Positions 48,001 through 51,000 of a DNA stretch of 64,000 nt are shown here, in pieces. Positions within the stretch are counted from its first letter, which is position 1. Each line of letters opens with the position of its first letter. The position numbers were made by a program. This DNA comes from Styela clava (Eukaryota), in the NCBI RefSeq assembly GCF_964204865.1, contig NC_135253.1:15996001-16060000 (forward strand), in the 5' to 3' direction.

Positions 48001-51000
48001 TACCAACTCAGACTGACTTGGTTTGTATTTGAGTTTGACGATGGCACTAAGCTTGCTCACGCTGCAACTTTTAAATTACTCAATATAACAATTCGTAATA
48101 AAATGAGTGTCGCAAGAAAGGTGACATAAGGAAAACACGGCGGAAACCTATTTCCTTGCCCATCACACAGTGTCTGGTTTGATTTCAAGTAATATCTGTC
48201 ACGAAAGAATATAATTTGAAGCGACATTAAACGTGGGATGCGCAAAATACAACGGCAATTCTCGGGAATTAACTTTAAAATAACTGAAGGCTTTATATAT
48301 CTTCTTTAAAAGAACGCTACCCGTGCAACATAATAATAGTCTGATTAGAAAGGGTAAACTCTCGTTGTTTGTTAAATTTGAAGTAAGTAAACTCGCGATA
48401 TTCCGATCACCTTTGGGTTTTCTCCGACTTGCAGCCCGCGAGACCTTCTCGGAAGTTTTTTGCGGTCCTTCAACCTAGCAACCTTGAACCATTCTGAGGT
48501 AGACTACTAGGTACCGGTAAAACCGGACTTGTATACTTTGGTATTTCGATTCACGTTGAGACTGGAGGCATGAATCTTTATTGTCACACTCAGGATTAGA
48601 GCTCATCCGATATATCGGCCCGATGTTGCGTGTTTGCCGATATATCATATCGGCAGTAAACGGCCGATATATATATCGGCTATATATAACAGTTAAAAAA
48701 ACCTAAAAGTGTTCGTAAAAGTTGTTTTATTTACTGTTGGTTGTTATTATTTTTATTAGATAACAGTGGCGGCGCGTCAATAGGGCCAACCGGGGCTATG
48801 CCCCGGTTGTTTTTTCGGTATAATAAAAAATATTCGAAAAATACCTCAATATCGGTTGCACAGACTGTCTACACTAGCCATATTCTCCCGACATGGTTCA
48901 TTTTTCGCTCGCAAAGGCAAAGCCTTCACCGAACGTCGACGGGGCGACGCCGATTTTGCCCCGGTTGCTCATTGTATATCGTATTCTCTCTCTTATCTTC
49001 CACTCGCCGCGTTTGTCTCGTTTGTTTTCTGTTTTTTTTACTAAATCATTGGGGCTAGCCCCGAAATTATGACGACACAATGCCGACGTTTCTTACAACA
49101 ACGTGTTGACATATTCACGCATTCCTTCTCGTTCGTTGGTTGCTTGAAGAGTTGATAGTTTCCTCGCCTTCGTTTTTGTCGCTTGTTTCGCTATTTGAAT
49201 CAGTTAGAGACCTTTAGTAAATTTGCTTTCGATTTTTCACATTCCTTTTGAGCTCCTCACTTCTTTCCGGCTTCCCATTTCTTAGCCTTAGACCTCATAA
49301 TGAATAAGGTTGATGCACTACTTCGCACTCCGTTTTCGCAGCTGCCGCTGGAACAAAAATTAGAGGTACAACGTCTTGGGCCTTATGAACCAAAAAATTG
49401 TTCACTGGAACAATCCCATGACGGAGGAAAGCGTCGGCGTACATTCTGCGCAGAAACTTGGTATAAAAAACACGAATGGTTGTGTTACAGCGAGGACAAA
49501 AATGCACTTTTTTGTTTTTATTGCCTACTTTTTGCTACCGCCCGTGACTCACGTTGGTGTAAATTTGGTTTTAGAGATCTTAAACATCTTTCCGAGCGTG
49601 GCAGGGATCATCAATCTTCTATGGAGCATCTGGACAATGCAGTAAAATACCGAACATTCGGAAATGTTAATATTGCAGCACAGTTGGATGAAGGACGCGC
49701 GGTTTCTATTCGTCGGCACAACCAAAACGTCGAGAAAAACCGCCATGTTCTTCAAAATGGCTAAGAAATGCGAAGCCGGAAAGAACTGAGGAGCTCAAAA
49801 GGAATGTGGAAAATCGAAAGCAAATGGACTAAAGGTCTCTAACTGATTCAAATAGCGAAACAAGCGACAAAAACGAAGGCGAGGAAACTATCAACTCTTA
49901 AGCAACCAACGAACGAGAAGGAATGCGTGAATATGTCAACACGTTGTTGTAAGAAACGTCGGCATTGTGTCGTCATAATTTCGGTCTGGGCTAGCCCCGA
50001 TGATTTAGTAAAAGAAACAGAAAACAAACGAGACAAACGCGGCAAGTGGAAGATAAAAGAGAGAATAAGATATACAATGAGCAACCGGGGCAAAATCGGC
50101 GTCGCCCCGTCGACGTTCGGCGAAGGCTTTGCGAGCGAAAAATGAACCATGTCGGGAGAACATGGCTAGTGTAGACAGTCTGTGCAACCGATATTGAGGT
50201 ATTTTTCGAATACTTTTTATTATACCGAAAAAACAACCGGGGCATTGCCCCGGTTGGCCCTATTGACGCGCCGCCACTGTTAGATAATACACTTATGTGG
50301 TTTATTGTTTTTATAATTAAATTACACATGAAGGGGCACCAAAGTCTTCATTGCTTAGGGCACCAAAGGGGCTTAATCCGCCCCTGGCTCAAACCCATGG
50401 GTTAGGGTTAGTATGGGTTCAAATATCCGTAAAGCAAAAAAAATCCATAGGTGCAATAGTATGCAGGTGCAATTGTCGAGGGTTCAAATGTACGTGGGTT
50501 CGAATGTAATGGAACCGTTTTCGAGTGATATCGATATCATGATGGTATCATATTGGAGCAGGAAATGAAATTGGCCTGTGAGCCGCCCACTCATATCTTT
50601 CACGAAACTAACGTAGGCAGGTCATGATACAATGCACTGACGACATTCACCCATTATTCTTCACTGCGGTCGATTATACGTCTTGATCAACATTTCGAGA
50701 CAAATTACTGTGACAGCAGTCAACTGTGGTCAAAGTTGCGCACCTCAAAAATAGCCCCGCTTTCTACATAGGTTGTGCAAGTTATAATTTTCAAACTGCT
50801 AGATTTGCATTGGCAACTCACCAACAAATGCAACTTTATCTTGCATGAAAATATAAAAATTAGCCATGAGGTTATATTTGTTGAACTTCTCAAAAACCAA
50901 TTGTACCTAACCGCTGGTCCGCGAAGCTTTTTAGCTGTCCGCGAAAAAACTACTTCGCTATTTTTCTGCCGGCGTAACCGCTTGCTTACCAAAAATATGA

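What the first reader, a model, noticed from the sequence alone, without database searches (positions are those of the whole stretch)
48764..50279. hAT element made of two inverted copies of the same (5') end, retaining only an intact DNA-binding zinc-finger ORF
Seen: ~520-bp inverted arms (with several substitutions and a small indel) around a 471-bp spacer. The spacer is almost exactly the open first ~150 codons of a hAT transposase (TTF zinc finger), and a perfect 8-bp TSD flanks the whole unit. Known: hAT elements normally have short TIRs and distinct left and right subterminal regions. Inference: a left-end/left-end chimera that still transposed as a unit. It could have convergent promoters (sense plus antisense transposase RNA), form a ~0.5-kb hairpin source of siRNA/piRNA, and/or encode a truncated repressor analogous to P-element KP, making it a candidate self-silencing module for its family.
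Basis: partly seen in the sequence, partly recalled or inferred. Interest (0 to 1): 0.7.

Follow-up and report, generated by a model that had tools for sequence, protein, structure and literature searches.

The report
Rearranged hAT transposon with duplicated end
This is a broken-down copy of a hAT "jumping gene" in what is probably a sea-squirt genome, whose right end has been replaced by a mirror image of its left end; the shape is real and a little unusual, but nothing shows that it does anything.

Summary
Arms 48764-49287 and 49759-50279 are inverted copies (14 substitutions in 517 aligned bases, 3 indels). They enclose a 471-bp spacer and sit between perfect TTAGATAA duplications.

The spacer ORF (49300-49764, 154 aa) equals residues 1-151 of ~697-aa hAT transposases carrying DUF4371 and the hAT dimerisation domain. 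The best hit, 93% identical, is a Styela clava protein. Homology stops at 49752, six unmatched bases follow, and then the inverted 5' region begins.

Best reading: a non-autonomous hAT derivative in which an inverted copy of the 5' end was joined to a truncated transposase gene.

The decisive check, the 3' end of the full-length parent, could not be made because no eukaryotic genome DNA was available. A parent with ~520-bp TIRs is therefore not excluded.

The duplication does not prove that the chimera moved as a unit; it could have formed in place.

The open ORF is no evidence of selection: it stays open in 31% of neutral simulations.

The silencing and repressor ideas have precedents (maize "Ac killers", Mu killer, P-element KP) but are untested here. 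No second copy was found in the window or the protein databases.

The parts
48756..48763 (.). Left copy of the 8-bp target-site duplication, TTAGATAA
   Evidence: Read directly. It is identical to 50280-50287 and fits the nTnnnnAn preference quoted for Hermes (PMC10368747, passage).
48764..49287 (+). Left arm: the 5' terminal and subterminal region of the hAT element in native orientation (524 bp), starting CAGTGGCGGCGCG
   Evidence: Inverted-repeat pairs I1-I4 and the global alignment to the right arm. The inner ~45-110 bp are homologous to the in-frame upstream sequence of related proteins P0011 and P0013.
48787..48809 (.). Subterminal palindrome CAACCGGGGC-TAT-GCCCCGGTTG, 24 nt from the tip; candidate transposase-binding site (inference)
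   Evidence: Direct-repeat family D1. The 10-mer CAACCGGGGC occurs 3 times in the left arm counting both strands. The analogy is to the Hermes left-end STR1-STR2 quasi-palindrome bound by BED domains.
48958..48967 (-). Third copy of the 10-mer half-site (GCCCCGGTTG)
   Evidence: k-mer count; D1.
49288..49299 (+). 12-nt leader between the inner end of the left arm and the start codon
   Evidence: It has no counterpart next to the right arm.
49300..49764 (+). Truncated transposase ORF, 154 aa. Residues 1-151 are the N-terminal region of a hAT transposase with conserved C72, C75, H104, H110; the last three residues (QNG) and the stop come from the junction and the right arm.
   Evidence: ORF listed. 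It is 93% identical to P0001 ('zinc finger MYM-type protein 1-like [Styela clava]') and 62% to the 697-aa P0002/P0003. DUF4371 starts at about residue 145-147 of the relatives. AlphaFold2 mean pLDDT is 92.2.
49753..49758 (.). Six bases (CAAAAT) at the rearrangement junction that match neither the transposase continuation nor the arm; possible filler
   Evidence: tblastn with P0001 and P0002 ends at 49752 and the arm homology starts at 49759. No templating source of 10 nt or more was found within +/-3 kb.
49759..50279 (-). Right arm: inverted copy of the 5' terminal and subterminal region (521 bp)
50234..50256 (.). Mirror copy of the subterminal palindrome (CAACCGGGGC-ATT-GCCCCGGTTG)
   Evidence: D1.
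50280..50287 (.). Right copy of the 8-bp target-site duplication, TTAGATAA
   Evidence: Read directly.

Best explanation
A non-autonomous, rearranged copy of a hAT DNA transposon of the DUF4371 / 'ZMYM1-like' type, in what is probably the ascidian Styela clava or a close relative.

Structure: the element keeps its native 5' end (524 bp), a 12-nt leader and the first 151 codons of the transposase gene. At 49752 the gene is broken. After six unmatched bases, an inverted copy of the same 5' end follows and runs out to the terminus.

Origin (inference): faulty repair or replication synthesis over an element. One nascent strand copied the 5' end into the gene. The other copied the 5' end in inverted orientation, either after mis-pairing through the short TIR or by fold-back. 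The two were then joined by end-joining with filler. This can happen in place, keeping the original target-site duplication, or elsewhere, followed by transposition of the chimera.

Current state: since then the copy has decayed at a pace that looks neutral. It cannot move on its own, because it has no catalytic or dimerisation domains.

Effects: I think it has no selected function. As a by-product, any transcript through it would fold into a double-stranded RNA stem of about 0.5 kb that matches the family's 5' end. The ORF could also yield an N-terminal zinc-finger fragment. Both could dampen the family, as shown for similar structures in maize and Drosophila, but neither effect is shown here.
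For: - Geometry, duplication and termini.
- The ORF equals residues 1-151 of ~697-aa proteins carrying PF14291 and PF05699. In one search, 1418 relatives reach E<=0.001, and the listed full-length (~700-aa) ones mostly match it at their N-terminus.
- Of the 78 aligned sequences, 61 match DUF4371 and 38 match Dimer_Tnp_hAT.
- The left arm is the native 5' flank: P0011 and P0013 read ..HLFKPSDLFALMMNKVD through homologous sequence.
- The junction has 6 unmatched bases.
- hAT elements that have been studied have short TIRs and dissimilar ends. Hermes has 17-bp TIRs and two dissimilar ~450-bp ends (PMC10368747, passages). Buster elements have 14-16-bp TIRs with a 500-bp 5' region and a 339-bp 3' region (PMC12637253, passages).
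- Positional argument (inference): the arm stops 12 nt before the start codon. Under a long-TIR parent, the deletion's right breakpoint would have to fall in the innermost ~12 bp of the right TIR. Under a template switch, no such coincidence is needed.
- Neutral-looking decay: 14 substitutions and 3 indels between the arms. The ORF remains open in 31% of simulations at half that divergence and in 10% at the full divergence.
- Precedent for the by-product effects: inverted repeats of Ac 5' terminal sequences give dsRNA, siRNAs and heritable silencing (bioRxiv 10.1101/2020.01.07.897926, abstract and Discussion).
Against: - The parent's 3' end was never seen, so a family with genuine ~520-bp TIRs is not excluded.
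- Only one copy is known: no other copy in the 64-kb window. No database protein shares the QNG* tail: none of the 3 hits of similar length, and none of the 81 relatives that carry the KNRxxL motif, among 161 proteins held.
- The window ORF keeps the majority residue at 38 of 39 well-conserved columns and is open. Both also fit weak purifying selection; at this low divergence the data cannot separate the two.
- For Hermes, the two-left-end complex seen by cryo-EM is described as an arrangement that cannot support transposition. This argues against a left-left element having moved as a unit, though not against origin in place.
Confidence: 0.62

Rival explanations
1. Simple internal deletion of an autonomous element that itself has long (~520-540 bp) terminal inverted repeats. 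The right arm would then be the native 3' end, not a duplicated 5' end.
For: The present sequence alone cannot distinguish this from the chimera model. Long TIRs exist in other DNA transposon superfamilies: Mutator-like elements and Galileo (search listing only), and SB and ZB with ~200-bp TIRs (PMC12637253, passage). The arm ends just before the start codon, which is where a long TIR could naturally end.
Against: The hAT elements I could read about have 14-17-bp TIRs and dissimilar ends. The deletion's right breakpoint would have to coincide with the inner edge of the right TIR to within about 12 bp (inference). My searches found no hAT family with TIRs of this length, but that is a limited search of open-access text.
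Confidence: 0.2
2. A mobile, selected 'self-silencing cassette': the left-left chimera transposes as a unit. It is kept because it supplies hairpin or antisense RNA and a KP-like truncated DNA-binding protein that repress its family.
For: - The ORF is open and keeps 38 of 39 conserved residues.
- The structure model is confident (pLDDT 92.2).
- The arms would form a near-perfect ~0.5-kb stem.
- Precedents exist: Ac killers; Mu killer (abstract start in the search listing); and the KP polypeptide, 207 aa with 199 identical to the transposase N-terminus, which binds P elements and represses (PMC4938643, passages).
Against: - There is no second copy, and no protein with the same junction tail.
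- The open ORF is expected by chance in 31% of neutral simulations.
- Four upstream ATGs lie in the left arm.
- There are no expression or small-RNA data.
- A Hermes two-left-end complex is described as non-productive.
Confidence: 0.1
3. Assembly or sequencing artefact: a palindromic chimeric read assembled into the contig.
For: Inverted duplications are a known artefact class of long-read libraries (recalled, not from any call).
Against: The arms differ by 14 substitutions and 3 indels. The unit ends exactly at transposon termini and is flanked by a perfect 8-bp duplication. An artefactual fold-back would not give these features.
Confidence: 0.03

Closest known systems
Maize 'Ac killer' composite insertions (p1-ww-id1 and p1-ww-id4; Wang et al., bioRxiv 10.1101/2020.01.07.897926; abstract and Discussion read)
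   Same: Same superfamily (hAT). Both contain inverted repeats of the element's 5' terminal sequences around a loop. In one maize allele, transcription is thought to come from the element's own promoter.
   Different: The maize structures are 1.8-3.9-kb repeats inside large duplications made by alternative transposition with re-replication, and they are not a compact unit flanked by a duplication. Their dsRNA, siRNAs and heritable silencing were measured; nothing of that kind is known here. The maize host is a plant with RNA-directed DNA methylation, whereas this host is an animal.
Mu killer (maize Mutator; abstract start of PMC3440606 seen in the listing; also described in the Discussion read)
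   Same: A natural partial inverted duplication containing two copies of the terminal repeat region and part of the transposase gene, able to form a hairpin RNA.
   Different: It belongs to a different superfamily. In Mu killer part of the transposase gene lies in the stem and transcription reads through from a flanking gene. Here the coding part is the loop and only the non-coding 5' region forms the stem.
P-element KP repressor (PMC4938643, passages)
   Same: A short derivative whose ORF keeps only the N-terminal part of the transposase (KP: 199 of 207 aa; here 151 of 154 aa), followed by a few junction-encoded residues.
   Different: KP is a simple internal deletion with normal ends. It is widespread in populations, and its protein is shown to bind P elements. 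Here the ends are rearranged, only one copy is known, and no binding or repression is shown.
Ds deletion and filler derivatives of Ac (PMC3260210, passages)
   Same: Non-autonomous hAT derivatives with 8-bp duplications, retained termini, fragments of the transposase gene and filler DNA at junctions.
   Different: The Ds classes described there keep both a 5' and a 3' Ac end. None is described in the passages I read as two inverted 5' ends.
Hermes (Musca domestica hAT; PMC10368747, passages)
   Same: The nTnnnnAn 8-bp target, an N-terminal zinc finger that binds subterminal repeats, and a quasi-palindromic repeat pair close to the left tip (compare 48787-48809 here).
   Different: Hermes has dissimilar ends and a CCHC BED finger with shorter spacing. 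No significant sequence or fold match was found between the window ORF and solved structures, which include Hermes entries. Only the C-terminal domain of relative P0002 weakly matches Hermes, at E about 0.03.

Membership tests
hAT superfamily transposon (non-autonomous derivative) | 8-bp target-site duplication | tested here: met
   TTAGATAA on both sides. It fits nTnnnnAn as quoted for Hermes.
hAT superfamily transposon (non-autonomous derivative) | Termini of the CAG.../...CTG type forming inverted repeats | tested here: met
   CAGTGGCGG... at 48764 and its complement at 50279; the first 33 bp of the two arms are identical. The general hAT terminal consensus is recalled, not taken from a call.
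hAT superfamily transposon (non-autonomous derivative) | Coding sequence related to a hAT transposase (catalytic region plus C-terminal hAT dimerisation domain in full-length relatives) | tested here: met
   The ORF aligns to residues 1-151 of 684-710-aa proteins carrying PF14291 and PF05699. The element itself lacks both domains, so it is non-autonomous.
hAT superfamily transposon (non-autonomous derivative) | Short TIRs with dissimilar left and right subterminal regions (usual, not strictly defining) | tested here: not met
   Both ends are the same ~520 bp. This is the anomaly under study.
BED / TTF-type zinc finger | Conserved CCHH or CCHC zinc-binding residues | tested here: met
   C72 and C75 are invariant and H104 and H110 are at least 90% conserved in 78 sequences. 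The expectation that hAT transposases carry an N-terminal CCHH/CCHC BED finger comes from PMC10368747.
BED / TTF-type zinc finger | Match to a curated zinc-finger profile | tested here: inconclusive
   The ORF gives only zf-C17orf113 at E 0.19, 12.1 bits against a cut-off of 29.5. Of 78 aligned relatives, 8 match that model at E<=0.01. An atlas neighbour is named 'TTF-type domain-containing protein', score 0.96. No SMART TTF model was on hand.
BED / TTF-type zinc finger | Fold similar to a solved BED finger | tested here: not met
   Foldseek against the PDB found 0 matches at E<=0.001, both with the whole ORF model and with the residue 49-122 model. Small domains are hard for this search.
Transposon 'killer' locus (Mu killer / Ac killer type) | Inverted duplication of the terminal and 5' part of an otherwise active element | tested here: met
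Transposon 'killer' locus (Mu killer / Ac killer type) | Transcription into dsRNA, matching small RNAs, and silencing of active copies in trans | not testable with these tools
   No RNA or small-RNA data are available. Only the predicted fold could be computed.
KP-type truncated-transposase repressor | Open frame retaining the N-terminal DNA-binding part of the transposase | tested here: met
   The open frame is also expected by chance in 31% of simulations.
KP-type truncated-transposase repressor | The protein binds element ends and represses transposition; the derivative spreads to many copies | not testable with these tools
There is no other copy in the window and no protein with the same tail. 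The host genome could not be searched.

The most novel reading that the evidence does not exclude
The unit is a mobile 'killer transposon'. On this reading a hAT left-left chimera is still recognised by the family's transposase, spreads to new sites, and at each site supplies three things:
- a ~0.5-kb hairpin against the family's 5' end;
- antisense transcripts over the first 150 codons, driven from the duplicated promoter;
- a zinc-finger fragment that occupies the subterminal palindromes.

That would be a self-propagating silencer of its own family in a chordate relative. It would also show that, unlike Hermes, this hAT lineage can transpose with two identical ends.
Probability: 0.07. Interest if true: 0.7.

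Novelty: new member of a known kind. Interest (0 to 1): 0.3.

Why it matters
If the parent proves to have ordinary short TIRs, this copy is a clean natural example, in an animal, of how repair errors turn one transposon end into a long palindrome. That is the same kind of structure that triggers silencing of Ac and Mutator in maize. If further copies with the same junction exist at other sites, it would also show that a hAT transposase can mobilise two left ends, which the Hermes structures argue against. As a single decaying copy with no expression data, it is of modest interest: useful for annotating this transposon family and as a candidate small-RNA source, but not a new kind of system.

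Tried and rejected
- **Second copy or parent in the window.** BLASTN of the element found only itself and its own arms. tblastn with full-length relatives P0002, P0004 and P0005 found only 49300-49755.
- **Unoccupied paralogous site.** BLASTN of the two 1-kb flanks gave only short, unrelated repeats.
- **Proteins sharing the junction tail.** The search at similar lengths gave 3 hits, none with the tail. None of the 81 motif-bearing relatives, among 161 proteins held, has it; the short ones continue with normal transposase sequence and look like fragments.
- **Other arm copies by way of the 86-aa arm ORF (48798-49055).** One candidate was found and none scored.
- **Cluster look-up for source names and copy counts.** Not answered, because the database was switched off; not pursued.
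- **Fold matches for the zinc-finger region.** Two Foldseek searches of the PDB gave nothing significant.
- **Templated origin of the 6-bp junction filler.** No match of 10 nt or more within +/-3 kb.
- **Known RNA families and tRNAs.** None in the window.
- **Homodimer test of the 154-aa fragment (complex prediction).** There is no verdict.
- **Promoter claim.** A simple TATA[AT]A pattern was not found in the left arm. The promoter scanner on hand is for bacteria and was not used.
- **Weak resemblance at the start of P0011/P0013.** Their start (MPSLFSRY) weakly resembles the arm ORF start at 48798 (E 6.5). This is too weak to decide whether related elements have a shorter 5' region or a 5'-UTR intron.
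- **Literature.** Searches for hAT elements with long TIRs or two like ends and for ascidian small-RNA pathways gave nothing specific. The S. clava genome paper (passages) says 46.69% of the genome is repeats but, in the passages shown, nothing on this family; its supplements were not opened.
- **Collections.** The genome-contig collection holds only bacteria and archaea and was not scanned. The host genome therefore stayed unchecked.
- **Human sequence and spliced models.** I do not take the contig for human.
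Full report
**What is in the sequence.**
- Arms 48764-49287 (524 bp) and 49759-50279 (521 bp) are inverted copies of each other (pairs I1-I4).
- Their global alignment has 517 aligned pairs with 14 substitutions (8 transitions, 6 transversions; K2P 0.0276) and three indel events of 6, 4 and 1 bp.
- They enclose a 471-bp spacer (49288-49758).
- The unit starts CAGTGGCGG and ends with the complement. It is flanked on both sides by TTAGATAA (48756-48763 and 50280-50287). 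I estimate an 8/8 match at fixed positions to occur by chance about 2 in 100,000 times at the local base composition (GC 0.417).
- As RNA the unit folds at -1077.5 kcal/mol, with 506 of 524 left-arm bases paired to the right arm.

**What the spacer encodes.** The only long frame is 49300-49764, 154 aa.
- It is 93% identical to a 323-aa NCBI protein named 'zinc finger MYM-type protein 1-like [Styela clava]' (P0001). It is 48-62% identical to proteins of 684-710 aa, and it aligns to their residues 1-151.
- Those proteins carry DUF4371 (from about residue 145) and the hAT C-terminal dimerisation domain. The C-terminus of P0002 weakly matches Hermes transposase chains (E about 0.03).
- A full scan of 1.84 billion representatives gave 1418 relatives at E<=0.001. 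The listed full-length (~700-aa) ones mostly match the ORF at their N-terminus.
- In a 78-sequence alignment, 61 members match DUF4371 and 38 match Dimer_Tnp_hAT.
- The window is therefore eukaryotic, probably S. clava or a near relative, and I do not take it for human. An ABC-2 transporter exon and a linker-histone exon lie elsewhere in the window.

**The zinc-finger claim.** The claim rests on a conserved pattern and analogy, not on a profile or fold match.
- W60, C72, C75, G90 and N141 are invariant, and H104 and H110 are at least 90% conserved. This gives a CCHH pattern. [quoted passage not shown]
- Direct tests were weak. Pfam gives only zf-C17orf113 at E 0.19, below its cut-off, and 8 of the 78 aligned relatives match that model.
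- An atlas neighbour is automatically named 'TTF-type domain-containing protein' (score 0.96).
- The models are confident: pLDDT 92.2 for the whole ORF and 86.4 for residues 49-122. Foldseek found no solved structure at E<=0.001 for either.
- 'DNA-binding zinc finger' is therefore a reasonable inference and not a demonstrated fact.

**The junction.**
- Transposase homology ends at 49752 (codon 151...KNRHVL), where relatives continue with G/S/N-R-hydrophobic residues.
- The arm homology begins at 49759.
- The six bases between (CAAAAT) match neither sequence, and I found no template for them nearby. The ORF therefore ends QNG*.
- On the left, the arm stops at 49287, 12 nt before the start codon.
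- Two related proteins from short ENA contigs (P0011 and P0013, 82% identical in the shared part) read in frame from upstream sequence (..HLFKPSDLFALMMNKVD) that is homologous to the window's ..HFFPASHFLALDLIMNKVD. The left arm is thus contiguous with the gene in relatives and is the native 5' flank, at least in its inner part.

**Chimera or long-TIR parent.** This is the central question, and I could not settle it. What can be said:
- The hAT elements I could read about have short TIRs and dissimilar ends. Hermes has 17-bp TIRs and two dissimilar ~450-bp ends. Buster elements have 14-16-bp TIRs with a 500-bp 5' region and a 339-bp 3' region (PMC12637253).
- Under a long-TIR parent, the deletion's right breakpoint must coincide with the inner edge of the right TIR to within about 12 bp. 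Under a template switch, no coincidence is needed (inference).
- The unmatched six bases fit end-joining with filler, as described for Ds derivatives (PMC3260210, passages; the 'abortive gap repair' papers themselves are recalled, not read).

I put the left-left chimera at about 0.6-0.7 and the long-TIR parent at about 0.2.

**Did it transpose as a unit?** The target-site duplication shows that an element with these termini inserted here. It does not show that the chimeric form moved.
- Repair or replication synthesis entering from the right flank could copy the short right TIR and re-pair with the identical left TIR in the opposite sense. It would then copy the 5' region inward and be joined to a strand that had copied the 5' end into the gene.
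- That sequence of events makes the same structure in place, with the old duplication intact (inference).
- For Hermes, the two-left-end complex is described as an arrangement that cannot support transposition.
- Only further copies with other duplications would prove mobility. None is in the window, and none of the database proteins examined shares the QNG* tail.

**Is the ORF maintained?** The data cannot tell.
- I took the arm-to-arm differences as a neutral yardstick. The 462-nt frame stays free of stops and frameshifts in 31% of simulations at half that divergence, and in 10% at the full divergence.
- The ORF keeps the majority residue at 38 of 39 well-conserved columns. At about 7% protein divergence from P0001, that too is expected without selection.
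- Four upstream ATGs lie in the left arm (48798, 48893, 49069, 49080). They would hinder translation of a transcript that starts near the tip.

**How it most likely works.**
- Shown: the structure, its hAT origin, the loss of the catalytic and dimerisation domains, and the capacity to form a long hairpin.
- Inferred: origin by aberrant repair synthesis; no autonomous mobility; probably no selected function.
- Possible side effects, not shown: any transcript through the unit would carry a stem of about 0.5 kb that matches the family's 5' non-coding end. If the arm holds the family's promoter, the right copy would drive antisense RNA across the first 150 codons.
- In maize, inverted repeats of Ac 5' terminal sequences give dsRNA, 21-24-nt siRNAs and heritable silencing. 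The authors liken these loci to Mu killer.
- A truncated N-terminal transposase as a repressor has its model in KP (207 aa, 199 of them transposase; it binds P elements).
- The palindrome CAACCGGGGC-TAT-GCCCCGGTTG, 24 nt from each tip, with a third half-site at 48958-48967, recalls the Hermes left-end STR1-STR2 quasi-palindrome. It is the obvious candidate binding site.

**Novelty and verdict.** The compact, duplication-flanked left-left form is one I did not find described (searches, open-access text only). I file it as a new member of a known kind, a rearranged non-autonomous hAT derivative of 'killer-like' shape, and rate the interest at about 0.3. The bold reading, a mobile self-silencing cassette, remains possible at roughly 7%. 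It would be testable in an afternoon with the host genome and small-RNA data.

Noticed in passing
window 44047-46566: A ~1.36-kb segment is present twice in tandem, in blocks of 98-100% identity: a recent tandem duplication or a two-unit satellite.
   Followed up: no
window 48596-48690: Directly left of the element lies a cluster of CCGATATATCGG-type palindromes (I5; sequence). This may be the remnant of another small inverted-repeat element.
   Followed up: no
window 48404-48491 and 51586-51672: An 88-bp direct repeat (86% identity) lies on either side of the hAT unit at a distance, so it belongs to some other repeat family. It did not provide an empty-site comparison.
   Followed up: partly
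window 52350-53158: 50-nt inverted repeats (92% complementary) lie 709 nt apart, starting ATATCGTCAGGC. This is a candidate small DNA transposon or MITE.
   Followed up: no
window 25423-25830 (-) and 57318-57662 (+): Host gene exons: an ABC-2 type transporter membrane domain (E 1.1e-15) and a linker histone H1/H5 domain (E 6.5e-11). The hAT unit lies between them, with no long frame of a host gene over it.
   Followed up: partly
window 48798-48839 versus proteins P0011 and P0013: The N-terminal extension of the related proteins (MPSLFSRY...) weakly resembles the arm frame starting at 48798 (MPRLFFRY; E 6.5). Related elements may lack about 370 bp of the 5' region, or the short ENA contigs may be spliced transcripts with a 5'-UTR intron. 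Unresolved.
   Followed up: partly
relatives listed: Many hits of 110-200 aa cover only the N-terminal region. The 11 that end within 40 residues after the KNRxxL motif continue with normal transposase sequence, so they look like contig or gene-model fragments and not a class of stand-alone N-terminal proteins.
   Followed up: partly
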